From sequence record MZ501103: a DNA stretch of 64,000 nt. The stretch is one strand, 5' to 3'. Each line of letters opens with the position of its first letter. Within the stretch, counting starts at the first letter, position 1. Source of the DNA: Escherichia phage SelmaRatti. This document shows positions 22,907 to 46,486 of this stretch, in pieces. The notes below the pieces were generated by a model. It worked only from the letters and a program-made list of their open reading frames with translations, did no database searches and had not been told where the DNA came from. Position numbers and translations under genes: made by a program.

Positions 22907-22987
22907 TCAGAAAATTTTATTTGCCAAATGACTGAGAATAAAGTAAACTATTTCCTAAATCCTGATAACTATAAAAAGGAAAGCCAA

Positions 22988-30820: not shown

Positions 30821-30896
30821 TAAATAAATTAAAAATCTTCTTGCTTAAAGCCCTCTAATTTAGTATAATATTCGTATTGAAAGTGAGGAGGGCTTT

Positions 30897-31175
30897 ATGC
30901 GAATTTATAACTCAAATTCATTAGGATTTAAACCGTTGAGAAAACGTGCACAATCACCTCGTCAAATAAGAAAGGCTAATATTGGTGAGCCAGAAACACG
31001 TCTCCCACCTCCTCCAGAACAACGTTTAGTTTATCTGGATGAAGAATTAGCTGAACGCGAAAGAAAAGCTCAAGAAGAGATTGAGCGTAAGAAAATGTGT
31101 ACTGCTCCAGCGTATAATAAAGGAGCGTATCAATATGTTTCCGATGCAGAACAAGCCAAGATGGTTGGTAGATAA
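30897..31175 (+). CDS. hypothetical protein (92 aa)
   Basis: ORF. Confidence 0.4.
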   Translation: MRIYNSNSLGFKPLRKRAQSPRQIRKANIGEPETRLPPPPEQRLVYLDEELAERERKAQEEIERKKMCTAPAYNKGAYQYVSDAEQAKMVGR

Positions 31176-31191
31176 TTTTTAAAAAATTCAG

Positions 31192-31220
31192 TTGCTAAAC
31201 GCTTCAAATTCTCGTATAGT
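31192..31220 (+). promoter_or_regulatory. sigma70-type early promoter
   Basis: TTGCTA-17-TATAGT then cataaattga. Confidence 0.5.
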
Positions 31221-31258
31221 ATACTTCATAAATTGATAAACAAAAAGGAAAACAAATA

Positions 31259-31774
31259 ATGGCTAAGCAGAAAAACGCAAAAACTCAAGCAGCTACTACA
31301 GTTAAAACTTTCCCGCAGACTGAGGCTAACCGCAAAGCTCGTCTGGAACGCCACCTGCGCAAGCACCCTACTGATGCTCAAGCTGCACAGGCACTGAATC
31401 GTCCGGCTCCTATTCGTCAAAAGCCGAAGGCTAAGAATGCTACTCGTTCTGTAGCCCGCCTTGTGACCTATGTACAGGGTTATGGTCACAAATCTGTTCC
31501 AGTAACACTGAGTTTCAATGCTGGAGCTGAATTGTTCTCTCGTAATGGCATGGCCATGAAAGATTATGAGAAAGCAGTTAACCAGAAGCGTAAACCAACG
31601 GCAGATGTACTGCGTGATGCTCGTGGACAGTTTGGTTCTGTTAAGCCAAATATCTTCGGTGTAGAGTATAGCAAAGATAACGTTCGTGCTCTGTGCTACG
31701 GTGTAGGGATTAAATTCACGGGCGATTCTGCTCGTAAATCTGCTAAACCAGCTCGTAAACGTAAAGCGAAGTAA
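31259..31774 (+). CDS. hypothetical basic protein (171 aa)
   Basis: Strong promoter and RBS, Lys/Arg-rich, followed by hairpin terminator. Confidence 0.5.
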   Translation: MAKQKNAKTQAATTVKTFPQTEANRKARLERHLRKHPTDAQAAQALNRPAPIRQKPKAKNATRSVARLVTYVQGYGHKSVPVTLSFNAGAELFSRNGMAMKDYEKAVNQKRKPTADVLRDARGQFGSVKPNIFGVEYSKDNVRALCYGVGIKFTGDSARKSAKPARKRKAK

Positions 31775-31779
31775 TAGAT

Positions 31780-31806
31780 AAGAGGGGCTTTCGCCCCTCT
31801 TAGTTT
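31780..31806 (+). terminator. rho-independent terminator
   Basis: agaggggc-tttc-gcccctct then tagttt. Confidence 0.55.
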
Positions 31807-31815
31807 GGAGAAACT

Positions 31816-32037
31816 ATGCGTAATTTTGTAGTAAAGAATGATTTTAACCGTGCTAGCACTCATAAGTCTGCTAGAGATTACACACGACTTTCTAGTCATG
31901 AGATAATGGATTTAGCAGTGGATGAGTTAGACTTAGATGACCTCTCTATGGAAGAGAACTGGGATGTCAGTGAAGATATGCTTCCTGGTTTTAAAGACCC
32001 CAAGAAGTGGGAGTCTATTAAAGAGACAACTCTTTAA
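31816..32037 (+). CDS. hypothetical protein (73 aa)
   Basis: ORF. Confidence 0.4.
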   Translation: MRNFVVKNDFNRASTHKSARDYTRLSSHEIMDLAVDELDLDDLSMEENWDVSEDMLPGFKDPKKWESIKETTL

Positions 32038-32065
32038 TAGTTTTCTACACAATAAAGGATAAGTT

Positions 32066-32767
32066 ATGAAAGTAAAACCATTTGGTATGCTAGATATTGA
32101 ATCTCTAGGAACTCCAGGAGATTGTGGTACTACTCATATTGTAATGCCTTCTTTCGCTTTTGTGGCTATGCACGGAATTGATAAAGATCCTGGTCTAGTG
32201 TTTGTTACTTTAGATGTACAAGATCAGCTTAATTCTGGAGCTAAAGTTACGGCATCTACTCTAGCATTCTGGATGGATCAAGCTAAACATAGCCCGTCTG
32301 CTGTCCACATTATGGAAGCTATGAAGGAACGTAATCCAAAACTGATTGCCTTCCAAAATGGTAAACATTATTGCACTAATAAATTAGGCTCAAACTATGC
32401 TGCCTTCTCTATGGCTAAAAACATTATGGAATCGGCTCTAGGAGAGAATGCTCTATACTACGGCAATGGCCCGGAGTTTGATATGACTATCTACTCTGCA
32501 AATACGTTCCACGCGGGAACTCACGAAGAGGTAGTTCCGTGGAAATTCTGGAACTTAGGTAATGTTCGATCTATACGCAATCTTTGGATGCAGGCTGGCT
32601 ATAGTTATAAAGATCTAGAAGCCGAAGGTATTAGCTGGGCAATAGCTAAAATGGAGAAGATGGACACCATTCGTTATGGGATCTATCCGGTTAAGCATGA
32701 TCCAGCATTCGATGCCTTAGTTGAGAGCTATTGTATTGCAGCTATGATCGAAAAAATGAAAATTTGA
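32066..32767 (+). CDS. DEDDh-type 3'-5' exonuclease-like protein
   Basis: N-terminal MLDIESLG (Exo I D-x-E) and C-terminal HDPAFDAL (Exo III H-x4-D). Confidence 0.45.
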   Translation: MKVKPFGMLDIESLGTPGDCGTTHIVMPSFAFVAMHGIDKDPGLVFVTLDVQDQLNSGAKVTASTLAFWMDQAKHSPSAVHIMEAMKERNPKLIAFQNGKHYCTNKLGSNYAAFSMAKNIMESALGENALYYGNGPEFDMTIYSANTFHAGTHEEVVPWKFWNLGNVRSIRNLWMQAGYSYKDLEAEGISWAIAKMEKMDTIRYGIYPVKHDPAFDALVESYCIAAMIEKMKI

Positions 32768-32768
32768 T

Positions 32769-32797
32769 TTGCTTCCGGCTCCAAAATTCTGTATAAT
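32769..32797 (+). promoter_or_regulatory. sigma70-type early promoter
   Basis: TTGCTT-17-TATAAT then cataaatttgag. Confidence 0.55.
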
Positions 32798-32854
32798 ATA
32801 TTCATAAATTTGAGAAAACAATAAAAAAAAGAAAACAATAAAAGGAAAACAAAT

Positions 32855-33037
32855 ATGCCAGTATCTAAAAATGTTCGTAAAAATGGTAAGAAAGCTACTC
32901 GTAACCTGGGTATCCGTCGTATGGCTGAACGTCAATCAGGTGTCCAGAAAATCTTTGATCTGCTAAATCGTGCTAATCCTAAAATTGATAACAGTAACGA
33001 TACTGTTCTGCGCACTCTGCTGGCAATTGGTCTGTAA
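32855..33037 (+). CDS. hypothetical protein (60 aa)
   Basis: ORF behind promoter 32769-32797. Confidence 0.4.
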   Translation: MPVSKNVRKNGKKATRNLGIRRMAERQSGVQKIFDLLNRANPKIDNSNDTVLRTLLAIGL

Positions 33038-33090
33038 TAAACCAAGTTTAAACAAATTCAAATCTCAAATTTCATATAAGGAAGCAAATA

Positions 33091-33729
33091 ATGACTACTA
33101 GTATTTCTAAAACTCGCGCTCTGGCAACTATCAAATCTCTGGAAGCTAAAATCCGTAAAGCTACTGAACAACAGCTTCTGATCGCTGTTGGTGAAGGTAA
33201 GGATAAAAATAAGGTTGTAGTTGGCGCTGCAATCGAAGTAGACGATCTGTCTGCTCGTATTAAGACTGATTTCCAGTCTCTGCTGGATATGATGTCCCAG
33301 CGTGATCGTATCAAAGCTGCTCTGATTAAAAGCAATGCTGAAACAATCGTTGAGATTGGCTCTCGTAAGATGACTGTTGCGGAAGCAATTGAAGCTAAGC
33401 GTTCTATGGAACTTAAAGCCCAACTGCTGGATAACATGCGTAAGCAGTTCCATGCCGCTACGGTTAAGTTTAATACGCAGAAAGCACAGTTTGATGCTAA
33501 ATATGAGCGTTTGCAGGATAGCATGGCTACCCGCGATAAGAAAACTTCCGAAGATGAAGTTAAAATGCAGCTCAACCTGCTGGAACTCAAGAATACTCCA
33601 TTCTTGATTGACCCGCTGGAACTGGAAAAGCTGATTAAGCAGCACGACGAGGAATACCAGGACTTTGCAACAAATGTTGACTTTGTTCTGTCCGAGTCTA
33701 ACGCCTCTACCTTTATTGAAGTAGAGTAA
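33091..33729 (+). CDS. hypothetical coiled-coil protein (212 aa)
   Basis: RBS aaggaag; overlapping minus-strand ORFs have implausible composition. Confidence 0.5.
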   Translation: MTTSISKTRALATIKSLEAKIRKATEQQLLIAVGEGKDKNKVVVGAAIEVDDLSARIKTDFQSLLDMMSQRDRIKAALIKSNAETIVEIGSRKMTVAEAIEAKRSMELKAQLLDNMRKQFHAATVKFNTQKAQFDAKYERLQDSMATRDKKTSEDEVKMQLNLLELKNTPFLIDPLELEKLIKQHDEEYQDFATNVDFVLSESNASTFIEVE

Positions 33730-34112
33730 TAATTTAAAAGCTAGTAAATCGGTAGACGAAAGCCCAAGCATCTTACCTCGCAGCAGCGGTTGAAATACGA
33801 GGTTAAATAAGACCGCTGACCATACTATAAAGTATAATCTATTGGAGATTATGTTTATTACATCAGACACTTAATCTGACACGTAAAAACAAAGCGTCGT
33901 TGATATTACCGACACAACTTCAAAGATCAACATTTAAGTATGAAAGCTGAAAAGTTTAAAGAACTCAAACTTCTAAACTTCTAAAGCTAAAAGATGCAAA
34001 GTATTCGTTGATGATTCAAACCCTAGATCAAAGGTACATGGCTCGTAAGATATGGCCTGTGGCGCCTCTAGGCTGTTTATCGGTTTACTAGTTTCACAAT
34101 TTAAAAATGTAT

Positions 34113-34141
34113 TTGCTAATCTACTAAATTATATGTATAAT
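34113..34141 (+). promoter_or_regulatory. sigma70-type early promoter (HNH gene)
   Basis: TTGCTA-17-TATAAT. Confidence 0.55.
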
Positions 34142-34171
34142 ATATTTTTAAATTGATGAAACGAGGCTATT

Positions 34172-34993
34172 ATGGGTAAATTACAAAAACAAATACTACC
34201 ATATATAGATTATATTCGAGAAATTATAAAATATAATCCTTATACCGGTAAATTATTTTATAAGCCTAATAAATACAAGAATAAAACTTGGCACACCCTA
34301 TATGCTGGGAGAGAAATATGTAGTAAGAACTCTAATGGGTACATCAGAGTTAGCTTGCTCTTAGGTAATAAACCCACAATTATTTATGGGCACCGAATAG
34401 CGTGGTTGCTCCATTATGGTGAAGAGCCACCTGATATGATCGACCATATAAATACCATACCGTGGGATAACAGAATTCTTAATCTAAGAGAGACAAATTT
34501 TAAGTTAAATAGGATTAATACTGATAAAACCGTAGGTGTAGAACTCCTCTCCGAGGGTTTTGTGTATAGCATTACATTAGGTGGAAAGTTTTTCGTATCT
34601 CCTGGCTTCACCACTTTCGAACAAGCTAAAGGGGAAAGAGAAAAACTAGTAAATGGTTTATGTAATGCAGAAATTGGGAAGCAGACCAATATTCTAATAG
34701 ACGATGTTAGAGATCTACCTGAAATGTCCATTATTTGTCGTACAGTTATAGGTGCGCTGGAACTATCAGATATGTTTAGTTTCACAGGATCCTATTTATT
34801 TATGGACTCAGATTTAGGGGATCCAGAGGTACAAGGAAAAGATTTATTAGATCATATACTATTTTTAGGTCAAAGACCACTAAAAGTGGTTCTAGTAACA
34901 TCTAATCCTGTTGACGCAGAGTACATGAGAGGAACCCTTACGTCTTATGGATACCGAGAAAATCCCAATAGATTAGAATATGATCTATTTTAA
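34172..34993 (+). CDS. HNH homing endonuclease (AP2/HNH_3-like)
   Basis: GYIRVSL...HRIAWLLHYGEEPPDMIDHINTIPWDNRILNLRETN. Confidence 0.7.
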   Translation: MGKLQKQILPYIDYIREIIKYNPYTGKLFYKPNKYKNKTWHTLYAGREICSKNSNGYIRVSLLLGNKPTIIYGHRIAWLLHYGEEPPDMIDHINTIPWDNRILNLRETNFKLNRINTDKTVGVELLSEGFVYSITLGGKFFVSPGFTTFEQAKGEREKLVNGLCNAEIGKQTNILIDDVRDLPEMSIICRTVIGALELSDMFSFTGSYLFMDSDLGDPEVQGKDLLDHILFLGQRPLKVVLVTSNPVDAEYMRGTLTSYGYRENPNRLEYDLF

Positions 34994-35005
34994 GGAGTAA
35001 AAAGA

Positions 35006-35455
35006 ATGAAGGCAGCTTTGCTTTTAGTAGCTGCCCTTACCTTCAGCTTTAGTAGTCAGGCATCGCACGATGCAAAAGAAATAGATTGCATTGCTAAAAA
35101 TATCTATTTCGAAAGTCGTGGTGAGGGCATAAAGGGAATGACGGCGATTGCACATGTTACTAAAAACCGTGTAAACTCCGGTAAATTCCCAGATTCCTAC
35201 TGTAAAGTATTATATCAGTCTAACCAGTTCTCTTGGGTATCTAAGAGACCAAAAGTTGATAAAACTGATGAGGCTTGGCAAACCGCCAAGAATTTAGCTA
35301 GAGTGATATACTACGTTGATTTACCACAAGATCCTACACATGGAGCACTATACTTCCATAGTGGTAAAGATAAACCTTACTGGACAAAGAAGTTTAAGAA
35401 AACAACTAAGATTAAGGGACATACGTTTTATAAACCTGTTGTCACTAAAACTTAA
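35006..35455 (+). CDS. SleB-like cell wall hydrolase with signal peptide
   Basis: Signal peptide then CIAKNIYFESRGEG...AIAHVTKNR...GALYFH. Confidence 0.55.
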   Translation: MKAALLLVAALTFSFSSQASHDAKEIDCIAKNIYFESRGEGIKGMTAIAHVTKNRVNSGKFPDSYCKVLYQSNQFSWVSKRPKVDKTDEAWQTAKNLARVIYYVDLPQDPTHGALYFHSGKDKPYWTKKFKKTTKIKGHTFYKPVVTKT

Positions 35456-35466
35456 AAATTTATTAA

Positions 35467-36156
35467 ATGAAAAAATTAACACAGGAAGAAGTAGAGAGTT
35501 ACCTAGTTAGTAGAGGCTTATTCACTAATGATAAGTATACTAATACTAGGACTAAAATGCAGTTCTGTTGCACCTATGGACATGTTTTTAATGCTACCCT
35601 AAATAATATTAGGAACGGAAGAGGTTGTCCCTACTGCTATGGAAATGTTAGGTACACTCAAGAACAAGTATCTGAATATTTGCGTAGTTTAGGATATTAC
35701 ACCATTACCAAATATATAAATAATAACTCTAAGCTACAACTTACTTGTAGTAAGGGGCATGTATGGATTACCACTTTTAGTGCCATAAAAAATATGGGTA
35801 ATAGATGCCCTGAGTGCTCCAATATATGGAGCGATGGTGGGATACTTTATATAATAACTAGTTCATTAGGTACAAAAATAGGAATTACTAATTCTCCTGC
35901 TCGTAGGTTAAGGGATTTGATTACTGCATCCGGGGATCCCACAGCTAAGTATTATGGTCATTATACATATGGTAGCTCTTCTAAATCAGAAACCCTTGCT
36001 TTAGAGAAGAAGGCACATATGTATTTTAAAAGTCATAATTGTGGTTATAGTGGATTTGCTGGATCTACTGAATACTTTAATATTTCCACCGAAGAGGCAG
36101 AAGAATTCCTCTTGAAAGAGGGGGCCACAATAGTACAGAAAGAGGGTGGTTTATGA
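35467..36156 (+). CDS. zinc-ribbon repeat + T5orf172/GIY-YIG-like domain protein (homing-endonuclease-like)
   Basis: FCCTYGHVF...CPYC, LTCSKGHVW...CPEC, then LYIITSSLGTKIGITNSPARRL. Confidence 0.6.
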   Translation: MKKLTQEEVESYLVSRGLFTNDKYTNTRTKMQFCCTYGHVFNATLNNIRNGRGCPYCYGNVRYTQEQVSEYLRSLGYYTITKYINNNSKLQLTCSKGHVWITTFSAIKNMGNRCPECSNIWSDGGILYIITSSLGTKIGITNSPARRLRDLITASGDPTAKYYGHYTYGSSSKSETLALEKKAHMYFKSHNCGYSGFAGSTEYFNISTEEAEEFLLKEGATIVQKEGGL

Positions 36157-36323
36157 AGAACTTGATCGTCATTGGTGTTAATACTCGCGGTATTCGTACT
36201 ACGAAAACTGTTAAAACTTCCAACGTTGCTGAGATCACTACGAACCCTAAGAAGTTTGATTTCGCTAAAGTCTCGGCAGTTATGACAGAACAATCTTTTA
36301 ACCAAGCACTGGGAATTAAATAA
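36153..36323 (+). CDS. small hypothetical protein (56 aa)
   Basis: ATG overlaps previous stop; stop overlaps next start (TAATG). Confidence 0.3.
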   Translation: MKNLIVIGVNTRGIRTTKTVKTSNVAEITTNPKKFDFAKVSAVMTEQSFNQALGIK

Positions 36324-36766
36324 TGGAAGAGAATATTCTAGATGTTTTGCGTAGGGCTTTGCAGGGATCTAAGGTTGATGGTTCTGATAAAGAAGTAGCT
36401 AAAAGCTACCAGACCATAATCGGAGATCTTCAGCGTGTTGATAAAGACTTCATTACTTCTGAACAGTTTGTATCTTATCTAAAAGCTCAACTGAAAAGCA
36501 TTAATCAGACGAAAGCTAAACTTCACGGTCAAGACCTTGATAATTATAGCTTGCAGTCTGCTCAGTATGAATATATACTGAACAAATGGTTACAGCAGTA
36601 TTTGCCACCTCAGTTATCTGATTCTGAGATTCGCAAATACTTTGCAGAATTAGTTAAGTTGAACCCTGGGATTACAAAAGGTATGCTGATGAAAGCGATT
36701 AAGGAAGAATTTCCTGGGCGTTATGATGGTGGTACTGCTGCTCAGATTGCTGGCGAATTTAATTAA
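36323..36766 (+). CDS. GatB/YqeY-domain protein
   Basis: QQYLPPQLSDSEI and C-terminal G..DGG.A.QIA match the YqeY pattern. Confidence 0.55.
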   Translation: MEENILDVLRRALQGSKVDGSDKEVAKSYQTIIGDLQRVDKDFITSEQFVSYLKAQLKSINQTKAKLHGQDLDNYSLQSAQYEYILNKWLQQYLPPQLSDSEIRKYFAELVKLNPGITKGMLMKAIKEEFPGRYDGGTAAQIAGEFN

Positions 36767-36789
36767 AAATTTACTTGCTAAATGCTTAT

Positions 36790-36818
36790 AAATTCTGTAT
36801 AATATATTCATAAATTAG
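36790..36818 (+). promoter_or_regulatory. sigma70-type early promoter driving the tRNA/ncRNA region
   Basis: TTGCTA-17-TATAAT then cataaattagag. Confidence 0.55.
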
Positions 36819-37455
36819 AGAGTAATTCTTCTCTAATTTATTAAATAGTGGGGTGTGGAAATCACTTATGTAGTAACACTGCCGTCCTAGTATAATTGGT
36901 ATTATCAAGCCGTAACTGGTGGAAGATGTAGGTTCGAATCCTACGGTCGGTAAGAACTGGATAACTGATGCTTTTAACGTAAAAGCTTCCGAGGTTAGTT
37001 GCGCACTGCCTAAACCACGCGGTAGTTGGTTCCAGACTAACCAACCAGTCTGCTGAATAGTTTTATTACGATTTAACTATGTCCAGGCTAAAGAAGAACT
37101 TTAGAAGGTATTTCTAGGGTAGTGAAGTTCTTTCTCCATATCGGAGTAGTTTTTCAGGCTATCCACAAAGTGGGAAATGCTGACATGAGAGATGTCACTA
37201 ATGGTGCACAATAGCACAGGTAATTCGCGATAACTCCTGTTGAGTAGCAGCAAAAGGCGGGAAGTCATGACCCCAAGCCTAACCGAGTCCTCAATATACC
37301 GCAGGACATAACCACTAAGTCACCCTGACTTAAACTGGAAAATAATAGACGTTACCGTATTTTGTCTTGAAATACTTAATGAGTGAGACTTATGACTCTC
37401 CCGGTATCGTCTGTATTTTTAAGAGTTTTTACGAGAGTTCTTAAAAATACTTAAA

Positions 37456-37530
37456 CGGGGTGTAGTCTAAGGGAGAGGCAGGAGTCTTCTAAATTCCTTT
37501 ATGCAGGTTCGAATCCTGTCACCTCGGCCA
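37456..37530 (+). tRNA. tRNA-Arg (anticodon TCT)
   Basis: Hand-folded cloverleaf: acceptor cggggtg/cacctcg, anticodon loop cttctaa, T-arm gcagg-ttcgaat-cctgt, encoded CCA. Confidence 0.7.
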
Positions 37531-37564
37531 ATTTTATTAACTGTAACTAAAACAAAGGAAATAT

Positions 37565-38512
37565 ATGTTTAATACTAAAAATATGAAAGAACTAACTTCT
37601 GAGCAGAAAGTAATTCGTACTATTAAACGTTGGGGGATTGGTGCTGTAGTTGGTTTAGCAGGTTTAATCCTAGCTTTTAATTCATATACTATTGTTTCTG
37701 ATGGTACGGTTAAAACTCAAACATTCCTGGGTAAAGTAGACCCTAATCCAGTATTACCTGGTTTCCATATTGTAAACCCGTTTGCATCTTTCGATACTTT
37801 CAGTACAAAAGATATTGCTGTAAAATTAGATAAACTTCAGGTTCCTAGTCAGGATAAGTTTAAATCCACTGTTGACCTGACTGTTATGTTACAATTTGAT
37901 GGTTCTAAGGCACCGATCAACCGTATTAATGCAGGTACTCAGGATCAGGCTCTAGATAAGTACGTAACTGAAAAATTACTGTCCACTATTCGTGAGTTCG
38001 GTAAGTCTGTACCTAAAGCACAAGATTTATTTGATGCTAAAATTCAGGCTCAATTGCAAACTGCAATTCAACAGGAAGTTGAAGAGTATGCACGCCCATA
38101 TGGTTACACAGTTAAGCAGGTATTCCTTCAGGATATTACTTTGCCACCGGTAATCATGGAACAGGTACAGAATACCAAAGTTCGTGAAGAACAGGTTAAT
38201 GCTGCTAAAGCTGAATTAGCTCGTGTTGAACAGGAAGCACAGCAAAAAGTTAAACAAGCAGAAGCAGATCGTGAAGCTCGCAACAACCAAGCTATCGCTA
38301 ATGAACGTGACGCAGATGCTAAACTGTACGCAGCTAAGAAAGAAGCTGAAGCTAACGCCGCACTGCAACGTACCATTACTCCTGAGATGATTCGTTGGAA
38401 ACAACTGGAAGTTGAGATGATTCGTGCTCAGAAATATCAAGGTGGTGTGCCGCAGACTGTGGTTGGCACTGGTTACGATGGCCAGATGATTATGGATATG
38501 CGTAATAAGTAA
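37565..38512 (+). CDS. SPFH/band-7 membrane protein
   Basis: N-terminal TM helix, band-7-like core, C-terminal coiled coil. Confidence 0.55.
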   Translation: MFNTKNMKELTSEQKVIRTIKRWGIGAVVGLAGLILAFNSYTIVSDGTVKTQTFLGKVDPNPVLPGFHIVNPFASFDTFSTKDIAVKLDKLQVPSQDKFKSTVDLTVMLQFDGSKAPINRINAGTQDQALDKYVTEKLLSTIREFGKSVPKAQDLFDAKIQAQLQTAIQQEVEEYARPYGYTVKQVFLQDITLPPVIMEQVQNTKVREEQVNAAKAELARVEQEAQQKVKQAEADREARNNQAIANERDADAKLYAAKKEAEANAALQRTITPEMIRWKQLEVEMIRAQKYQGGVPQTVVGTGYDGQMIMDMRNK

Positions 38513-38588
38513 TATCCACGCGTAATATTCGAAGTAAGCCCTGTGTTTCCTGGAGAGCGCAGGCAATTAAATGAATTTATATAAAATT

Positions 38589-38621
38589 TTGCTTGTTTTT
38601 GCGCGTAAAATTTTATATAAT
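38589..38621 (+). promoter_or_regulatory. sigma70-type early promoter
   Basis: TTGCTT then TATATAAT; exact -10 register ambiguous. Confidence 0.45.
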
Positions 38622-38651
38622 ATTTACTCAAATTTGGAAGAATACGTTAAC

Positions 38652-39023
38652 ATGAATACTAATAAGAAAGGAAATATAGGGCTAGGAAGTGCGATTGCTC
38701 ACTTTACTAGTAAAGGTTTGATTGTTTCACTACCTTTAAATGACAGTCAAGATTACGATCTAATCGTAGATATGGGGGGTACTCTAAATAAAGTTCAGGT
38801 GAAATATACCTCCCAAAAGGCACCCTCTGGTAGTTATATTCTAGCTATGAGAAGTACAAGTGGCACTTCTAGAGTAGCGTATAAGACTCTTAATGAAACT
38901 AATATTGATTTAGTGTTTGTGTATACTGATCAGTATCAGTTGTTAATTCCAATTAAGAAATTAACTAATAAAAATCAAACTACCCTTACTAAAGAATTAG
39001 TACAAGAATTCCGAGTTATATAA
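38652..39023 (+). CDS. hypothetical protein, possible PD-(D/E)xK nuclease fold
   Basis: ATG 38652 chosen because the longer ORF starts inside the promoter; DYDLIVD...KVQVK motif. Confidence 0.4.
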   Translation: MNTNKKGNIGLGSAIAHFTSKGLIVSLPLNDSQDYDLIVDMGGTLNKVQVKYTSQKAPSGSYILAMRSTSGTSRVAYKTLNETNIDLVFVYTDQYQLLIPIKKLTNKNQTTLTKELVQEFRVI

Positions 39024-39025
39024 AA

Positions 39026-39115
39026 GGAAGAATACGTTAAAAGGTAAACGAGCTGATTGCTAATCAGTAGCTCTGAAATATAGCCTTGTGGGTTCGATTC
39101 CCACTTCTTCCGCCA
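39026..39115 (+). tRNA. tRNA-Ser (anticodon GCT), type II
   Basis: Acceptor ggaagaa/ttcttcc, anticodon loop ttgctaa, long variable arm, T-arm gtggg-ttcgatt-cccac, encoded CCA. Confidence 0.7.
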
Positions 39116-39121
39116 AACATA

Positions 39122-39196
39122 GGGTCGGTAGCTTAAAGTTAAAGCGGTGGCCTCATAAGCTAACGAGTAGGAGTTAGATTCTCCTCCGACCCACCA
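39122..39196 (+). tRNA. tRNA with anticodon CAT (Met or Ile2)
   Basis: Acceptor gggtcgg/ccgaccc perfect, anticodon loop ctcataa, T-arm aggag-ttagatt-ctcct, encoded CCA. Confidence 0.6.
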
Positions 39197-39211
39197 AATT
39201 AAGGAAATAAG

Positions 39212-39379
39212 ATGTATAGACATCCACCTCCGCCAACACGTCGTTCTAGAGAAGTTATCCTCATGGAATTGACTAAAAACTTCAAGGCAACTCTTGAAGA
39301 TAGAGATTTAGGCACAGATGAAGATGTTGATTTCATCTGTAAACTATTAAAAATGAAACTGGAGAAACAACATGGCTAA
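39212..39379 (+). CDS. small hypothetical protein (55 aa)
   Basis: RBS aagga; stop overlaps next ORF start. Confidence 0.3.
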   Translation: MYRHPPPPTRRSREVILMELTKNFKATLEDRDLGTDEDVDFICKLLKMKLEKQHG

Positions 39380-39578
39380 TCCTGAAATTACCGCACAACG
39401 TTTCATGCTTAAAGGCATGATTGCTGAGGCAGGTATGACTCAAGAAGTTGTAGATTTTCAAAAGCAATTCCTCAATATTCTCACTCAAGCCAAAGAGCTA
39501 GGAGAGAAAGAACATGGAGCAGCAATTATGGCTATATCTCTTATTAGTCTAGACTTGGCTGAAGAATCAGGAGTTTAA
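39372..39578 (+). CDS. hypothetical protein (68 aa)
   Basis: ORF. Confidence 0.4.
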   Translation: MANPEITAQRFMLKGMIAEAGMTQEVVDFQKQFLNILTQAKELGEKEHGAAIMAISLISLDLAEESGV

Positions 39579-39608
39579 CTCCTCCAAGCAGAAATTTTAA
39601 AAATGTAC

Positions 39609-39638
39609 TTGCCTTTTGCTTTAAATTTCTGATATAAT
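39609..39638 (+). promoter_or_regulatory. sigma70-type early promoter
   Basis: TTGCCT-18-TATAAT. Confidence 0.5.
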
Positions 39639-39649
39639 AGTTATATAAA

Positions 39650-39943
39650 TTGATGAGAGGAATCAGAATGTCAAAACGTGTTACAGCAACTGGTATTGAA
39701 AGTGTAATCTGCAAATCCTGGGAAGACAGGGAAGGTGAGATTGAATGGCTTTATTTCTATGATGTAGAACTTCTACCGGAAGTTAAAGCTAAATGTATTG
39801 AAGCTGGTATGGCTCCTGATGCTACTGCTGATGTTGAGATTATCATGAATAAGCTAGAGGGTCTGGTAATCACTGTTAGTGATGAGGGCGAAGAAGTCTT
39901 CGAACTTCCGTTCTCCTTAACTGTCACTCCTAAGTTCGACTAA
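39650..39943 (+). CDS. hypothetical protein (97 aa)
   Basis: Promoter 39609-39638, RBS gagagg. Confidence 0.45.
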   Translation: MMRGIRMSKRVTATGIESVICKSWEDREGEIEWLYFYDVELLPEVKAKCIEAGMAPDATADVEIIMNKLEGLVITVSDEGEEVFELPFSLTVTPKFD

Positions 39944-39979
39944 CTAATACAGCACTGAGCAAGTTCTTCAAAATTTTAC

Positions 39980-40008
39980 TTGCTCAGTGCCATAAAACTT
40001 GATATAAT
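39980..40008 (+). promoter_or_regulatory. sigma70-type early promoter upstream of tRNA-Tyr
   Basis: TTGCTC-17-TATAAT; -35 lies inside an 11-bp inverted repeat. Confidence 0.5.
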
Positions 40009-40071
40009 AGTTATCTAATTTGGAAACATATTTAAAAGTGTTTAAACTAGTATTTGAATACTTTTAAATGT

Positions 40072-40155
40072 GCATCGTTGGCAGAATGGCTATTGCAGCG
40101 GTCTGTAAATCCGTGCCCTTCGGGGTTGGTGGTTCAAATCCATCACGATGCACCA
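40072..40155 (+). tRNA. tRNA-Tyr (anticodon GTA), long variable arm
   Basis: Acceptor gcatcgt/acgatgc perfect, anticodon loop ctgtaaa, variable hairpin gccc-ttcg-gggt, encoded CCA. Confidence 0.7.
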
Positions 40156-40172
40156 AATTAAAGGAGCTGCTG

Positions 40173-40445
40173 ATGCATCCTGAAAACTTCTTTATTTACT
40201 GCGAGGATAAGTAGCTGAAACGTAGAATTAACAAAGTCTATCATTATCGTGCTAGTCAACAGCCTTATATATACGCTTTTGACGGTGATCACATTCCACT
40301 AGAACAATTATCCTGTGATTACATGATATTGAAGAACTTTGACGAGACAAAGATCTCAAGCGTTCATAATCGACAGAATCCATTAACGTGGAAATATAAG
40401 AAGAAAAAGAAAGGCATCAAATTCTTAAAAAATGTAGTTGCTTAG
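40173..40445 (+). pseudogene. ORF with strong RBS interrupted by in-frame TAG at codon 14 (40212-40214); pseudogene or amber read-through
   Basis: aaggag then ATG 40173; 13 codons, TAG, then 76 further sense codons in frame. Confidence 0.3.
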
Positions 40446-40466
40446 TTTCCAAAAGTTCTGTATAAT
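40438..40466 (+). promoter_or_regulatory. sigma70-type early promoter upstream of tRNA-Cys
   Basis: TTGCTT-17-TATAAT then cataaattgaa. Confidence 0.55.
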
Positions 40467-40514
40467 AATTACATAAATTGAACTGGAGAAGCAACATGAC
40501 AGAACAAGGTAAAT

Positions 40515-40587
40515 CGACCGTTGGCTGAATTGCTTAGGTGAAGGATTGCAAATCCTTTTTATGTGAGTTCAAATCTCATGCGGTCGT
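40515..40587 (+). tRNA. tRNA-Cys (anticodon GCA)
   Basis: Acceptor cgaccgt/gcggtcg (one G-U), anticodon arm aagga-ttgcaaa-tcctt perfect, T-arm gtgag-ttcaaat-ctcat. Confidence 0.65.
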
Positions 40588-40596
40588 CTAAATTTT

Positions 40597-40680
40597 AGGG
40601 TCGTTAGCCAAGTGGTTTGGCGGCGGATTGTTAATCCGTGTCGAAAGACAACGTAGGTTCGATTCCTGCACCCGCTGCCA
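40597..40680 (+). tRNA. tRNA-like gene, candidate Asn (GTT); acceptor stem imperfect
   Basis: D-arm, anticodon arm gcgga-ttgttaa-tccgt, T-arm and CCA fold well, but acceptor pairs only 4/7 and an extra gtc-gaaa-gac hairpin sits in the variable region. Confidence 0.35.
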
Positions 40681-40700
40681 TCTTAATAGAGGATTTCGAA

Positions 40701-40865
40701 ATGAAAGTATTTCGATTAGTAGTAAGTGATCGACGTTCTAGCAAAGATCGTTCGAAGTATACCTTAGCCCACTATGGTAAAGATGAAAAAGAAGTAATGG
40801 TGGAGTTTGGGATTAATCATCGCTACTTAGAAGTTTACTCTATTAAGGAAGTTTATCCGTATTAA
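40701..40865 (+). CDS. small hypothetical protein (54 aa)
   Basis: RBS agagga then ATG 40701; the longer ORF would start inside the preceding tRNA. Confidence 0.35.
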   Translation: MKVFRLVVSDRRSSKDRSKYTLAHYGKDEKEVMVEFGINHRYLEVYSIKEVYPY

Positions 40866-40943
40866 GGGTCGTTAGCTCAATTGGTTAGTAGCACTTGCCT
40901 TTTAAGCAATAGGTTGAAGGTTCGAGTCCTTCACTACCCACCA
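40866..40943 (+). tRNA. tRNA-Lys (anticodon TTT)
   Basis: Acceptor gggtcgt/actaccc (one mismatch), anticodon loop cttttaa, T-arm gaagg-ttcgagt-ccttc, encoded CCA. Confidence 0.6.
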
Positions 40944-40950
40944 AATTTTT

Positions 40951-41024
40951 GCTCGGTTAGTTTAATGGGAGAACCCCGTCTTTACACGGCGGTTGCGATA
41001 GTTCGATTCTATCACCGAGTACCA
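40951..41024 (+). tRNA. tRNA-Val (anticodon TAC)
   Basis: Acceptor gctcggt/accgagt, D-arm gttt/gaac, anticodon arm ccgtc-tttacac-ggcgg, T-arm gatag-ttcgatt-ctatc, encoded CCA. Confidence 0.75.
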
Positions 41025-41043
41025 ATTAACTCAAAATAAGGAA

Positions 41044-41409
41044 TTGCAAATGCAATTATCAAGCAAGATTCAAGGTTATTTCGGTCATGTGACAATGGAG
41101 TTCGCTATCTCTAAAGGTTGGGATTTCGAGCAAGATCTAGCTGAGTTCTACAAAGATATTGATCTGAACGTACCGTATATGGGACTTTCTACTGGTCAGG
41201 AGATCACAGAAGCCGATGTATTCAAGGCAAGTCAAGGTGAGATAACACCTAGTTTTGCCACTTTTTGGAGTGGCTTCACAATTAAAGAAGAAGCTCCAGA
41301 TGATGATGTATTTATGCAAAGCATGCACTCTGGGAGTTCTGATATGTTATTTGTTAAAGATGTACGACATATCCAAGAAGTGGTAAAAACGTATTTGCAA
41401 AATGCTTAA
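41044..41409 (+). CDS. hypothetical protein (121 aa)
   Basis: ORF with RBS aaggaa. Confidence 0.45.
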   Translation: MQMQLSSKIQGYFGHVTMEFAISKGWDFEQDLAEFYKDIDLNVPYMGLSTGQEITEADVFKASQGEITPSFATFWSGFTIKEEAPDDDVFMQSMHSGSSDMLFVKDVRHIQEVVKTYLQNA

Positions 41410-41423
41410 TTTCTTGTTATAAT
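41395..41423 (+). promoter_or_regulatory. sigma70-type early promoter driving unannotated RNA region
   Basis: TTGCAA-17-TATAAT then tataaattgatg. Confidence 0.5.
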
Positions 41424-41756
41424 ATTTATATAAATTGATGCGAAAATAGCTGCCTAGATACCAGGTGTATGACGTCTACACTAGCAGAGCTACCGAAAAA
41501 GAGATCCTCAGGATAAACGTCGTAGCAAAATTAGTCTGGTATCCATCAATTTAGTTCACTAAGGTATTAGCTCGACCTAGGACTGGCTGCCAAAAAGCAC
41601 GACCCCTACGACTCGGGAGAAGTTCTAGATTAGTCCACTAGATTCAGCGGCAACTGAATAGTGTATCGGGTTTGTGAAGAGCGGCTATCCTCTACTGGCT
41701 AATGTATGAGGTTAGTACGCACACCGAGCTAATAGCCTTAGTAAACTAAAGAATTT

Positions 41757-41831
41757 GGGCGAATAGTGTCAGCGGGAGCACACCAGACTTGCAATCTGGG
41801 AGGGAGGGTTCGAGCCACTCTTTGTCCACCA
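41757..41831 (+). tRNA. tRNA-Ala (anticodon TGC)
   Basis: Acceptor gggcgaa/tttgtcc (G-U pairs incl. G3-U70), anticodon arm ccaga-cttgcaa-tctgg perfect, T-loop ttcgagc, encoded CCA. Confidence 0.6.
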
Positions 41832-41955
41832 AATTAAAAAGAATGCGCGCGATTGACGGAATAGGTATACGTGTAAGCCTTAGAAGTTGAATTTTGAGGG
41901 TTCGAATCCCATCGAGGCGTAACTGCCTGGTGTGATAGAGGCATCATCTTATTAT

Positions 41956-42046
41956 TGGAAGAGCAAATCGAATTGGCGACGAAAACCGCTGGGAAAGTGG
42001 CTGACTGGTAAAACGGCTTGAGAGTTCAAATCTCTCCTCTTCCGCC
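41956..42046 (+). tRNA. type II tRNA-like gene (Leu/Ser class?), anticodon arm not resolved
   Basis: Perfect acceptor ggaagag/ctcttcc, T-arm gagag-ttcaaat-ctctc, CCA, D-loop gaattggcgac; no canonical anticodon stem found by hand. Confidence 0.35.
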
Positions 42047-42059
42047 AAACAATTTATAA

Positions 42060-42154
42060 GGTAGGTCAATCCAACGGCTGGCGATGGACTCCGACTTGAA
42101 ATCGGTTGATCGTAGTGATACGGTGTAAGGGTTCGATCCCCTTACCTACCTCCA
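42060..42154 (+). tRNA. tRNA-Ser (anticodon TGA), type II
   Basis: Acceptor ggtaggt/acctacc perfect, anticodon loop cttgaaa, variable hairpin cgta-gtga-tacg, T-arm aaggg-ttcgatc-ccctt, CCA. Confidence 0.65.
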
Positions 42155-42628
42155 AATCTTGAAGTATGCCGGAATCGGTAGACGGGGCTTCCTAAAGGGC
42201 GTAAGGGGAACATCCACTCCTCATAAGATACCCGAAAACGAGGCTGAGATAAATGGTCTATCTCGTGAAGGTTCAAGTCCTTCTGCTTCTTGATACCTCT
42301 ATGGCTCAAAGTGTAACGGTGCTATTTGATGCTCTTAGTAAGACTTTCCCGACATGCGTTCGGGGGTAAGCTGCTAAGACTAGAGTAGAAGAGTTTCGGA
42401 GAGCCGCCACAATTGAAAATTCGTACTCGTCTTGAGCTGCGTGCAATAGGAGATAACTTGATTAGTATTCTAGAACATGCTAATTGAGGAAGGTTTCTCT
42501 AACCCTGCGAGTTTTCAATTGTGGCTATATCATAATTGGTTAATGATCCTGATTGTGAATCAGGCCTTCCAAGCCTCGCTGAGTAGGGTTCGATTCCCTC
42601 TAGCAGCTCCAACTTTAAGGAAACATTT

Positions 42629-42850
42629 ATGCACGTTTTTGAGTTTAGTGATAAAAGTAACAATAAACGAGTTATTGTTATTGGAGAAACATACCGAGCT
42701 TATGAACAAACTGACGGCTCTGTTATCTTGAATGATGAGAAAGCTGGTTTCAGTTTCTATCCTGACGAACCTTATGAAGAGTTTCGTACTAAGTTTCTTT
42801 TACCAGACTGGCTAGCAGTAGCCGAGCAACGAGAATCCAAAGATGGCTGA
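42629..42850 (+). CDS. hypothetical protein (73 aa)
   Basis: RBS aaggaaa; first ORF after tRNA cluster. Confidence 0.45.
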   Translation: MHVFEFSDKSNNKRVIVIGETYRAYEQTDGSVILNDEKAGFSFYPDEPYEEFRTKFLLPDWLAVAEQRESKDG

Positions 42851-43365
42851 TAATCTAAAATTAAGGTTGACAAACAAAAGAAATACGTTGAGGTTGAATT
42901 AGGCGAATAACGCTTAAAGCTAACTTTCGAGTTTCTTCAGCAGTTGGCTATGACAGTTATGACTGATAAGTCTCCTGTTATTGAAAAAGAAATCCCGTTG
43001 AAATAATGGGATCATCGCTCTTAAAGCATTGCCGGAGATGCAACGGTCTTGTAAACCGTGGAACGGGCGTGACAGCAGGAAGTAGACTGCAACTCCATGC
43101 TATCCAGGAGTATAAATGTAGAAGCTAAGACTTTAGATAGCCATTGTCTTAGCGTGAGCAATCACGTAGTTGCAACAGACCAGGGGGATCGCAACGTTAA
43201 AATCAAAGCTCCTGTACTTATTAAACTTAATGGGACTATCAATCCACAAGCCGGACTACGAGCGATTATCGGGTATTCACTTAATAAGCAAGCCTGCCTT
43301 CCAGTTTTTATCTTGCTTCTGGGTTAACAAAAAGCTGAGCCAAATTCTAACATCAGGGAGATCTA

Positions 43366-45532: not shown

Positions 45533-45824
45533 GTTTATTATTGCACTGATGATCTCCGCAGTTAGTTTCGGTTCTCTGGCATCTACCAAAGTTTCTATGA
45601 AAAACGGGAATGTTAGGATACAACAGAACGGCATTATTACCGAGTATGGTAAAGTTCGTGATGTTAAAGAACGTAATGGTAAAGTAGAAATCTATACTAA
45701 TAAAAACTTCTCTACTCCAGCCGTTACTATTAGCAAACACGGTGAAATAACCACTCAACGTACTAATAGCTCCGGTTCTTTTACTTGTCGTTATGATTGC
45801 GACTTTGAAGGTGAAGATGAATAA
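45525..45824 (+). CDS. small secreted protein (signal peptide) ending ...CDFEGEDE
   Basis: RBS ggggagg; start overlaps previous stop in the motif gaagATGaaTAA. Confidence 0.45.
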   Translation: MNKFIIALMISAVSFGSLASTKVSMKNGNVRIQQNGIITEYGKVRDVKERNGKVEIYTNKNFSTPAVTISKHGEITTQRTNSSGSFTCRYDCDFEGEDE

Positions 45825-46212
45825 TTTAGACCCTAGAATTAAATTTGCTATTACAGAAATCCAAGATCAAATTGATGAGGACTTCACTGTTTGGTCAAGG
45901 TCTGGTAATGGAGAATATTGCCAGCTTTATAGCATGAAAATGGGTATCTCAATTGAGCTTAATATCAACTCTGAAGGTAGAGTAGAAGCCCAACCTATGT
46001 TTAGTATTCCAGGCTTCTCTGGATTTGTTGCAGGTATGAAATTGTGTCTACCAAATAACCATCTTCATCGAGTTATTTGTCAACTAGAGACTATTAAACA
46101 CTTCTTACCAGAAGATAACATTAATGACCACTACCATGAAGTAGTAGCAGCTCATATGATGAAAGAATGCAAACGTCGGAGAGAAGAACGTGAAAAAGCT
46201 AAACATCAATAG
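45817..46212 (+). CDS. hypothetical protein (131 aa)
   Basis: Same gaagATGaaTAA start/stop junction as previous gene. Confidence 0.45.
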   Translation: MNNLDPRIKFAITEIQDQIDEDFTVWSRSGNGEYCQLYSMKMGISIELNINSEGRVEAQPMFSIPGFSGFVAGMKLCLPNNHLHRVICQLETIKHFLPEDNINDHYHEVVAAHMMKECKRRREEREKAKHQ

Positions 46213-46486
46213 CACAGTGCAGATTCCAGCAACTAAGGATATTTTAACATTCCTACGTAGTGAAAACACTCAGTTTTGGCACGACTATATTCAGGAAAAT
46301 AAAAATAATCCAGATATAGTGGCTTTTGCCAAAAAACGTATTGGTGAATATAAAGATCCAGAGATTAAAGATGGGATGATTACCATGCAATTATGGATAG
46401 CTATGAAAACCTTTGGACCCACTATGAGTCTAGGATTTACTCCACTGTTTACTAATATTCTAATTAATGAAAAGGATCTGAAATGA
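46190..46486 (+). CDS. hypothetical protein (98 aa)
   Basis: ORF. Confidence 0.4.
   Translation: MKKLNINSTVQIPATKDILTFLRSENTQFWHDYIQENKNNPDIVAFAKKRIGEYKDPEIKDGMITMQLWIAMKTFGPTMSLGFTPLFTNILINEKDLK

What the first reader, a model, noticed from the sequence alone, without database searches (positions are those of the whole stretch)
40173..40445. Well-initiated ORF interrupted by an in-frame amber codon inside the tRNA cluster
A strong RBS (aaggag, 6-nt spacing) starts an ORF that hits TAG at codon 14 and then stays open for 76 more codons in the same frame, ending just before the next promoter. This is either a recent pseudogene or a candidate for amber read-through. No suppressor tRNA with a CTA anticodon was found by hand.
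Basis: seen in the sequence. Interest (0 to 1): 0.5.

Follow-up and report, generated by a model that had tools for sequence, protein, structure and literature searches.

The report
Private amber mutation in small phage gene
A small conserved gene of unknown function in this T5-like phage carries a one-base change that turns codon 14 into a stop codon; it looks like an ordinary, recent gene knock-out in a dispensable part of the genome, not a special decoding signal.

Summary
AAGGAG, a 6-nt spacer and ATG at 40173 are followed by 13 codons, TAG at 40212-40214, 76 open codons, and TAG at 40443-40445.

The window is a T5-like phage (Demerecviridae), about 93% identical to its nearest GenBank relatives. 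The ORF is the ortholog of T5.071 (phrog_5876, 90 aa, unknown function). It sits between tRNA-Tyr and tRNA-Cys.

- **The gene is real.** It is found in 399 phage records, and dN/dS between clades is about 0.1.
- **The TAG is private to this window.** All 24 relatives I read have a sense codon at position 14 (TCG Ser, TTG Leu, ATG Met). No phage record matches a consensus-plus-TAG probe exactly. A TAG-specific pattern found nothing in metagenome or genome contigs.
- **No suppressor tRNA.** No tRNA with a CTA, TTA or TCA anticodon exists in the cluster.
- **TAG is still a terminator**, including for this gene.
- **No other private in-frame TAG** occurs in 14,262 aligned orthologous codons.
- **The gene is dispensable.** T5.071 lies inside the viable T5Mos deletion.
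- **A second small ORF nearby is also broken**, by a frameshift and a private TAA.

Verdict: a recent TCG-to-TAG nonsense allele of a dispensable accessory gene. Programmed read-through is not supported. Low-level unprogrammed leakage and a sequencing error remain minor possibilities.

The parts
39980..40008 (+). Sigma-70 type early promoter. It has -35 TTGCTC at 39980-39985, a 17-nt spacer, and TG-n-TATAAT with TATAAT at 40003-40008. It is the positional equivalent of T5 promoter P14a and drives tRNA-Tyr and the ORF.
   Evidence: Read from the sequence. The T5 record annotates promoter P14a at the equivalent place upstream of tRNA-Tyr. The consensus scanner did not list it, because its -35 matches fewer than 4 of 6 positions.
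40072..40155 (+). tRNA-Tyr with anticodon GTA. It lies immediately upstream of the ORF, is presumably co-transcribed with it, and is not a suppressor.
   Evidence: ARAGORN. Rfam tRNA, 52.8 bits.
40161..40166 (+). Shine-Dalgarno sequence AAGGAG, 6 nt upstream of the ATG.
   Evidence: It is conserved as [AG]A[AG]G[GT]AG in relatives.
40173..40211 (+). The first 13 codons of the T5.071 ortholog (MHPENFFIYCEDK). This is the only part translated if the TAG terminates.
40204..40204 (+). Private C-to-A substitution (GCG Ala11 to GAG Glu). It creates GAGGA at 40203-40207, 8 nt upstream of CTG 40215.
   Evidence: all 19 unique intact relatives have C at this position.
40212..40214 (+). Premature amber codon TAG at codon 14. 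It is a single-base change from TCG (Ser) or TTG (Leu) in relatives.
   Evidence: No other carrier was found.
40215..40442 (+). The remaining 76 codons of the T5.071 ortholog, still open and essentially identical to the intact orthologs.
   Evidence: The closest relative differs at 4 of 273 nt.
40443..40445 (+). The natural stop codon of the gene. It is also TAG and is conserved in relatives.
40438..40466 (+). The next early promoter (TTGCTT, 17-nt spacer, TATAAT). It is the positional equivalent of T5 P14b, overlaps the gene's stop codon, and re-drives transcription towards tRNA-Cys.
   Evidence: Sequence. In the T5 record, P14b overlaps the 3' end of T5.071.

Best explanation
The ORF is this phage's copy of T5.071 (phrog_5876). 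This is a 90-aa early-region accessory protein of unknown function, found only in T5-like phages. It is co-transcribed with tRNA-Tyr from a P14a-type promoter.

In this phage a single C-to-A change turned codon 14 (TCG Ser) into TAG. Ribosomes start normally at the strong SD/ATG and terminate after 13 residues, so at most trace amounts of the 90-aa protein are made. The phage tolerates this because the gene lies in the dispensable tRNA region. Little polarity on downstream genes is expected, because the next promoter starts at the gene's end.

The lesion is recent, because the remaining 76 codons carry no further damage.

- Shown: the anatomy, the orthology, that the stop is private, purifying selection in relatives, and the absence of a suppressor tRNA or of recoding.
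- Inferred: termination at the TAG, loss of function, and the lack of polarity.
For: - **Orthology and synteny.** The 273-nt frame is colinear with annotated 90-aa CDSs in Kenya-K20, Shivani, RN29, T5_ev212, HdH2 and T5 (T5.071), between tRNA-Tyr(/Glu/Trp/Phe) and tRNA-Cys. The intact consensus protein matches phrog_5876 end to end (E = 4.6e-64).
- **A real gene.** tblastn finds it in 399 phage records, and 397 cover at least 80% of it. dN/dS is 0.08-0.16 between clades. Variable columns are 45/29/18 at codon positions 3/1/2.
- **A private stop.** Codon 14 is TCG, TTG or ATG in all 24 relatives read. A 64-nt probe of the window sequence reaches at best 96.9% in 231 records. A consensus-plus-TAG probe reaches at best 98.4% in 250 records, with none exact. 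The TAG-specific pattern has 0 hits in metagenome and genome contigs.
- **No decoding device.** No cta, tta or tca anticodon was found with ARAGORN at default or relaxed settings, or with Rfam. No RNA structure follows the stop.
- **TAG still terminates.** It ends this gene and other orthologs.
- **Lesions are confined to small ORFs.** In 87 orthologous CDSs (14,262 aligned codons) the only private premature stops are this one and a TAA in the T5.059-like ORF, which also has a 1-nt deletion. The large essential genes are intact end to end. This argues for real mutations filtered by selection rather than random errors.
- **Dispensability.** The viable variant T5Mos lacks 30661-38625 (PMC11464382, read), and T5.071 lies at 34806-35078. 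The 16 tRNAs annotated in that interval match the 16 reported lost.
Against: - No reads are available, so a consensus miscall cannot be excluded.
- The downstream 76 codons are pristine. That fits recency, but it equally fits a still-functional gene.
- UAG followed by C is among the leakier contexts reported in Salmonella and E. coli (PMC9122581), so 'null' may be too strong.
- The host is unknown and could carry a suppressor.
- Position 14 is variable (S/L/M/C), so an inserted amino acid would probably be tolerated.
Confidence: 0.72

Rival explanations
1. Leaky but unprogrammed expression (a 'pseudo-pseudogene'). The mutation is real, but useful amounts of near-full-length protein are still made by one of three routes:
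- near-cognate read-through of UAG-C, for example by tRNA-Gln;
- propagation on a host with an amber suppressor, such as supE44 laboratory strains;
- a restart at CTG 40215, helped by the private GAGGA created 8 nt upstream.
For: - In Salmonella and E. coli, read-through of pseudogene stops mostly involved UAG, cytosine was enriched at +4, and pseudogene products averaged about 10% of intact homologs (PMC9122581). Here the context is UAG-C.
- Position 14 is variable among homologs.
- The second private change at 40204 creates GAGG 8 nt before the CTG that directly follows the TAG.
- DH5a and other K-12 strains appear among the hosts of related phage records.
- The downstream frame is undamaged.
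Against: - The -1 base is G and the +5 base is T. The enriched bases in that study were C at -1 and A at +5.
- CTG is a very poor start codon in E. coli (own knowledge).
- A restart product would lack the conserved N-terminal N-[FY]-F-I-Y-C motif.
- Two private changes within 9 nt is not significant. By my own estimate, about 0.18 is expected by chance given 3 other differences in 273 nt.
- Nothing indicates the host genotype.
- A second nearby ORF is broken by an ochre codon plus a frameshift, so gene decay is occurring anyway.
Confidence: 0.15
2. Sequencing or assembly error. The true genome has TCG at codon 14 and the gene is intact.
For: - The allele is unique to this window.
- Two unique C-to-A differences lie 9 nt apart.
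- The other broken ORF has a 1-nt deletion in a short A run, a typical long-read error type.
- The source record could not be traced, so read support could not be judged.
Against: - 75 of 87 orthologous CDSs align end to end in one HSP, without a stop or a frameshift. These include the polymerase, helicase, primase and ribonucleotide reductase genes.
- All 3 disruptive lesions fall in about 430 nt of two small ORFs, out of about 43 kb of aligned coding sequence. Random errors would rarely do this.
- The site is not in a homopolymer or a Dam/Dcm motif.
- The spectrum of private substitutions around the site is mixed (7 C>A of 50), with no damage signature.
Confidence: 0.1
3. Programmed amber read-through or TAG reassignment. 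In this reading the phage deliberately decodes TAG, to make both a 13-aa and a 90-aa product or to recode TAG genome-wide.
For: Only the presence of a well-initiated ORF with an in-frame TAG inside a tRNA cluster. The T5 record also notes that several T5 tRNAs, including tRNA-Tyr, become amber suppressors if their anticodon is changed.
Against: - The TAG is absent from every relative examined.
- The window's tRNA-Tyr has anticodon GTA, and no CTA anticodon exists in the whole cluster.
- TAG terminates this gene and others.
- There is one private in-frame TAG in 14,262 orthologous codons.
- There is no stimulatory structure.
Confidence: 0.02

Closest known systems
T5.071 (YP_006899.1) of Escherichia phage T5, also HdH2 gp167 and SLUR09_00141; PHROG family phrog_5876, unknown function
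   Same: - The same 273-nt frame and the same SD/ATG.
- The same natural TAG stop, overlapped by the P14b-type promoter.
- The same neighbourhood between tRNA-Tyr(/Glu/Trp/Phe) and tRNA-Cys.
- 96.7% aa identity to HdH2 gp167.
   Different: - Codon 14 is TAG instead of TCG or TTG.
- Ala11 is Glu.
- The Glu, Trp and Phe tRNA genes that separate tRNA-Tyr from the ORF in T5 and HdH2 are absent here, as they also are in Kenya-K20, Shivani and RN29.
Recent unitary pseudogenes or nonsense alleles of accessory genes ('pseudo-pseudogenes' in Salmonella, PMC9122581)
   Same: A single in-frame UAG in an otherwise intact, transcribed gene, with C at +4. Some low-level read-through is possible.
   Different: That study concerns bacterial chromosomal genes. 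The expression of this phage allele has not been measured.
Classical amber (conditional-lethal) phage mutants grown on suppressor hosts
   Same: A single sense-to-TAG change, which would be rescued by supD, supE or supF hosts.
   Different: Those mutants are in essential genes and were selected in the laboratory. This gene lies in a region that can be deleted from T5, so no suppressor is needed for viability. The host genotype is unknown.
Stop-codon-recoded phages (TAG reassigned, with a phage-encoded suppressor tRNA)
   Same: An in-frame TAG in a phage gene that sits next to phage tRNA genes.
   Different: - There is no suppressor tRNA.
- TAG is used as a terminator.
- There is only one private in-frame TAG in 87 conserved genes.

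Membership tests
T5.071 / phrog_5876 gene family | Full-length sequence similarity to the family | tested here: met
   tblastn of HdH2 gp167 against the window gives residues 1-90 at 96.7% identity. The intact consensus matches phrog_5876 over 1-90/90, E = 4.6e-64.
T5.071 / phrog_5876 gene family | Conserved position in the tRNA cluster, downstream of tRNA-Tyr (or Phe) and upstream of P14b and tRNA-Cys | tested here: met
T5.071 / phrog_5876 gene family | Uninterrupted reading frame of about 90 codons | tested here: not met
   TAG at codon 14. The locus is therefore a disrupted allele of the family, not a functional member.
Recent pseudogene (nonsense allele) | Disruption relative to intact orthologs that are under purifying selection | tested here: met
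   All 24 relatives read have a sense codon at position 14. dN/dS is about 0.1.
Recent pseudogene (nonsense allele) | Gene dispensable for phage growth | tested here: met
   T5.071 (34806-35078) lies within the viable T5Mos deletion 30661-38625 (PMC11464382). This is literature evidence, not an experiment on this phage.
Recent pseudogene (nonsense allele) | Loss of the protein product | not testable with these tools
   This needs a reporter fusion or proteomics.
Programmed stop-codon read-through | Stop codon conserved at the site among relatives | tested here: not met
Programmed stop-codon read-through | Stimulatory context or downstream RNA structure | tested here: not met
   The fold of 40195-40300 has z = +0.57 against shuffles. 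Only the +4 C matches the leaky context reported in PMC9122581.
TAG reassignment with a phage suppressor tRNA | tRNA with a CTA anticodon | tested here: not met
   ARAGORN default and relaxed runs and Rfam give about 14 tRNA or tRNA-like genes, none with cta, tta or tca. The window spans the whole tRNA cluster as it is laid out in HdH2.
TAG reassignment with a phage suppressor tRNA | Many in-frame TAGs in conserved genes, and TAG not used as a terminator | tested here: not met
   There is one private in-frame TAG in 14,262 codons. TAG ends this gene, the ortholog at 18071-18289, and the 45817-46212 ORF.
Suppressor-dependent amber mutant | Propagation host carries an amber suppressor | not testable with these tools
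   The host and the source of the window are unknown (one search found no record).

The most novel reading that the evidence does not exclude
The amber is not a dead end. The two private C-to-A changes 9 nt apart would act together. One makes the stop. The other creates a GAGG Shine-Dalgarno 8 nt upstream of the CTG that directly follows the TAG. Termination-reinitiation, or UAG-C read-through by host tRNA-Gln or a host suppressor, would then still deliver a working, near-full-length T5.071-like protein at a reduced dose. That would be a natural down-tuning of an accessory gene rather than its loss.
Probability: 0.08. Interest if true: 0.3.

Novelty: already known. Interest (0 to 1): 0.1.

Why it matters
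It matters little beyond annotation. The locus should be annotated as a disrupted (pseudo) copy of the T5.071/phrog_5876 gene, and not as a read-through gene or as two small ORFs.

It adds one natural data point that this conserved ORFan of T5-like phages can be lost without killing the phage. That agrees with laboratory deletions of the T5 tRNA region. Together with the second decayed ORF and the reduced tRNA set, it shows gene turnover in this region.

If the allele were shown to be leaky, it would be a phage example of the 'pseudo-pseudogene' read-through described for Salmonella.

Tried and rejected
- **Function of the protein.** Pfam gave no hit. PHROGs gave only an unknown-function family. 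An exhaustive HMMER search of 1.84 billion representatives gave 8 hits, all small phage ORFs except P0007, which is a low-complexity repeat artefact. AlphaFold2 gave pLDDT 55 with 3 sequences and 65 with 9. Foldseek against BFVD returned only family members, and against PDB nothing with E below 1. The function stays unknown.
- **Source of the window.** An exact-protein look-up of the neighbouring 91-aa gene found no record, so read support and host could not be traced.
- **Oxidative-damage or mutator artefact.** The nonsense changes and A11E are all G:C-to-T:A, but the spectrum of 50 private substitutions in 3.4 kb around the site is mixed (7 C>A), so I rejected this idea.
- **Amber-specific pattern.** At first the window seemed to hold three premature stops in conserved ORFs. 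One (46210 TAG) is an allele shared by 25 records and is a normal terminator. One (42908) is TAA. So there is no amber-specific signal.
- **A natural N-terminally short form.** P0006 seemed to start at the residue equivalent to codon 14. Its contig shows an upstream ATG with the conserved N-terminus, so this is a gene-caller mis-start.
- **A read-through-stimulating structure.** None was found.
- **Literature.** There was no hit for 'T5.071'.

Full report
**1. What is in the sequence**

The coordinates and description are exact. AAGGAG lies at 40161-40166, followed by a 6-nt spacer and ATG at 40173. Thirteen codons (MHPENFFIYCEDK) follow, then TAG at 40212-40214, then 76 open codons, then TAG at 40443-40445.

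The ORF starts 18 nt after tRNA-Tyr(GTA), which lies at 40072-40155. It ends inside a -35/-10 pair: TTGCTT at 40438-40443, a 17-nt spacer, and TATAAT at 40461-40466. An upstream promoter (TTGCTC 39980-39985; TG-n-TATAAT with TATAAT at 40003-40008) precedes the tRNA. These two promoters sit where the T5 record annotates P14a and P14b.

**2. Chance**

At this composition P(stop per codon) is 0.067-0.076. A 76-codon open run therefore has P of 0.0025-0.005 per site, and Markov shuffles of the 64-kb window give about 45 such runs. Openness alone is weak evidence.

The composite pattern (SD, ATG, at most 20 codons, stop, at least 76 open codons) occurs about 0.07 times per shuffle. The window gives 4 regex matches at 3 sites. 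Two matches are this site, hit through overlapping SD motifs. The other two sites, at 62926 (+) and 50839 (-), look fortuitous. The decisive evidence is homology.

**3. Identity of the window and of the ORF**

The window is a T5-like phage (Demerecviridae, Markadamsvirinae). Over 24 kb the best GenBank phages (HdH2, S131, SP15 and others) are about 93% identical. Around the ORF the best matches are about 97%.

At the homologous place, relatives annotate an intact 273-nt CDS: Kenya-K20 K20_061, Shivani gp64, RN29 gp085, T5_ev212, HdH2 gp167 and T5.071. The DNA alignment is colinear and 98% identical. The intact consensus protein matches phrog_5876 (unknown function) over its whole length, with E = 4.6e-64, and has no Pfam domain.

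tblastn finds the gene in 399 phage records, 397 of them covering at least 80% of the protein, down to 47% identity in Erwinia phage KEY. In 5.8 billion proteins there are only 3 clusters at 90% identity. In 1.84 billion 50%-identity representatives there are 8 hits, one of them spurious. It is therefore a lineage-restricted ORFan.

**4. It is a real protein-coding gene**

Nei-Gojobori dN/dS between the two main clades is 0.08-0.16, with dS up to 1.3-1.8 and dN about 0.14. Variable columns number 45, 29 and 18 at codon positions 3, 1 and 2. The N-terminal motif N-[FY]-F-I-Y-C and the core LKRR[IV]xKVYH...IPL..L..DYM.LK.F are conserved in distant homologs. Residues 11-14 are the most variable part of the N-terminus, with position 14 being S, L, M or C.

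**5. The TAG is private**

Codon 14 is TCG in most relatives, TTG in T5_ev212, oldekolle, KKP_3822 and S113, and ATG in the Erwinia-phage branch. All 24 relatives read have a sense codon there.

- A 64-nt probe of the window sequence reaches at best 96.9% (2 mismatches) in 231 records.
- A probe with the consensus sequence plus TAG reaches at best 98.4% in 250 records, and none is exact.
- A pattern with N at the site found 15 viral contigs, all with TCG.
- The TAG-specific pattern found nothing in metagenome contigs or in 185,579 species genomes.

Against the consensus the window's ORF differs at four positions. Two are private: C-to-A at 40204 (A11E) and C-to-A at 40213 (S14 to stop). G-to-A at 40269 (V33I) is shared with T5. 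The fourth is a polymorphic synonymous site. The nearest ORF (OSYSP) differs at 4 of 273 nt.

**6. Tests of the read-through and recoding idea**

(a) tRNAs. ARAGORN at default settings finds 10 tRNAs. Rfam adds Asn(GTT) at 40598-40674 and a poor tRNA-like element at 36881-36952. ARAGORN at 80% threshold adds Leu(TAG) at 41847-41918 and Ser(GGA) at 41957-42047. None has a CTA, TTA or TCA anticodon. In HdH2 all 24 tRNAs lie in this one cluster, and the window spans the whole of it.

(b) TAG still terminates. It ends this gene in all relatives. It ends the ortholog at 18071-18289. It also ends the ORF at 45817-46212 in an allele shared at 100% identity by 25 records. For the 77 orthologs whose alignment reaches the last residue, the codon that follows is TAA in 50, TGA in 22, TAG in 2 and a sense codon in 3.

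(c) Across 87 orthologous CDSs (14,262 aligned codons) this is the only private in-frame TAG.

(d) The RNA downstream of the stop folds no better than shuffles (z = +0.57).

Programmed read-through and code reassignment are therefore not supported.

**7. Why a knock-out is tolerable**

The viable laboratory variant T5Mos lacks 30661-38625 and has lost 16 tRNAs (PMC11464382). In NC_005859 exactly 16 tRNAs (t09-t24) and T5.071 (34806-35078) lie in that interval. A second viable variant, T5_123, has lost 11 tRNAs (PMC12409363).

The window phage has itself lost much of the cluster. It has about 14 tRNA or tRNA-like genes against 24 in HdH2, and the Glu, Trp and Phe genes between tRNA-Tyr and the ORF are missing.

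It also carries a second decayed small ORF. The T5.059-like gene at about 42844-43006 has a 1-nt deletion and a private GAA-to-TAA change at 42908-42910.

All three disruptive lesions sit in about 430 nt of two small ORFs. Meanwhile 75 of the 87 orthologs align end to end, including all the large replication genes. That is the pattern expected of real mutations filtered by selection, not of random sequencing errors. The local private-substitution spectrum is unremarkable.

**8. Most likely mechanism**

Transcription starts at the P14a-type promoter and produces tRNA-Tyr plus the ORF message. Ribosomes initiate at the strong SD/ATG and terminate at UAG after 13 residues, releasing a 13-aa peptide. 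The 90-aa protein is lost or reduced to trace level. The P14b-type promoter at the gene's end restarts transcription, so little polarity on tRNA-Cys and tRNA-Asn is expected; this step is inference. The absence of further lesions in 76 codons, in a lineage whose synonymous divergence from its nearest relatives is about 0.1, dates the event as recent.

**9. Residual alternatives**

Unprogrammed leakage is plausible at a low level. In Salmonella and E. coli, read-through of pseudogene stops mostly involved UAG, C was enriched at +4, and products averaged about 10% of intact homologs (PMC9122581). Here the context is AAG-UAG-C-U, so only the +4 position matches.

A suppressor host would also rescue the gene, and position 14 tolerates several residues. 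The private change at 40204 creates GAGGA 8 nt before the CTG that follows the TAG, which allows a speculative restart. However, CTG is a poor start codon (own knowledge), the conserved N-terminus would be lost, and the proximity of the two changes is not statistically significant.

A base-calling error cannot be excluded without reads (one search found no source record).

**10. Verdict**

This is an ordinary, recent nonsense allele of a conserved but dispensable ORFan (the T5.071/phrog_5876 ortholog). Interest is low.

Noticed in passing
window 42844-43006 (+): The T5.059-like small ORF (HdH2 gp176 ortholog) is a pseudogene here. It has a 1-nt deletion in an A run near 42863 and a private GAA-to-TAA change at 42908-42910. 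No phage record matches the 64-mer exactly; the best is 98.4%.
   Followed up: yes
window 46210-46212 (+), ORF 45817-46236: A TAG shortens this ORF by 8 codons relative to HdH2 gp052. Exactly the same sequence occurs in 25 phage records, so it is a normal short allele and not a private nonsense mutation.
   Followed up: yes
window 22883-26344 (+) and 1142-4786 (-): The NrdA large subunit is 1153 aa here against 811 aa in HdH2, and the DNA polymerase is 1214 aa against 855 aa. Each carries an in-frame insertion of roughly 340-360 aa, at about 24323-25339 and 2771-3817. The boundaries look intein-like (Cys at the start, His-Asn-Cys at the end). These are probably inteins.
   Followed up: partly
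window 36880-42611 (+): The tRNA complement is reduced, with about 14 tRNA or tRNA-like genes against 24 in HdH2. The Glu, Trp and Phe genes between tRNA-Tyr and the ORF are absent, and no Gln, Gly, Thr, Pro, Asp or Ile tRNA was detected. ARAGORN at default settings misses tRNA-Asn(GTT) at 40598-40674, Leu(TAG) at 41847-41918 and Ser(GGA) at 41957-42047.
   Followed up: partly
window 36881-36952 (+); also 36953-37455, 41440-41756, 42155-42520, 43010-43360: A weak tRNA-like element (Rfam tRNA, 35.5 bits, with no clear anticodon) and several stretches of 300-500 nt without ORFs lie inside the tRNA cluster. They may correspond to the 'stable RNAs' (RNA2, RNA3, RNAIV, RNA2H) annotated in T5. They have no Rfam family.
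   Followed up: no
window 39952-39990 and 40027-40072 (+): A perfect 13-bp hairpin follows the upstream ORF and overlaps the -35 region of the P14a-type promoter. A hairpin with 20-nt arms (85% complementary) abuts the 5' end of tRNA-Tyr and may be a precursor-processing or leader structure.
   Followed up: no
window 62926 (+): My pattern scan found a second place with the same look: GGAGG, ATG, 13 codons, TAG, then 81 open codons. It lies antisense to conserved early genes and its translation does not look protein-like, so it is probably chance.
   Followed up: no
NC_005859 (locus L022), tRNA annotations: The T5 reference record states, for each tRNA, whether changing its anticodon turns it into an amber suppressor. 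Tyr, Lys, Ala and Ser3 are called 'effective'. The tRNA-Tyr gene just upstream of this ORF is therefore one anticodon base change (GTA to CTA) away from suppressing it.
   Followed up: no
GenBank records OR847827, OR848495 ('Listeria phage'), L027 and L007/L017: Short 'Listeria phage' records are about 97% identical to this T5-like region, which suggests mislabelled or contaminating sequence. Some relatives (oldekolle, NBSal003 and others) have a 1-nt shorter A run near the 3' end of the gene, which replaces the last 4 residues (NVVA) with a single Met.
   Followed up: no
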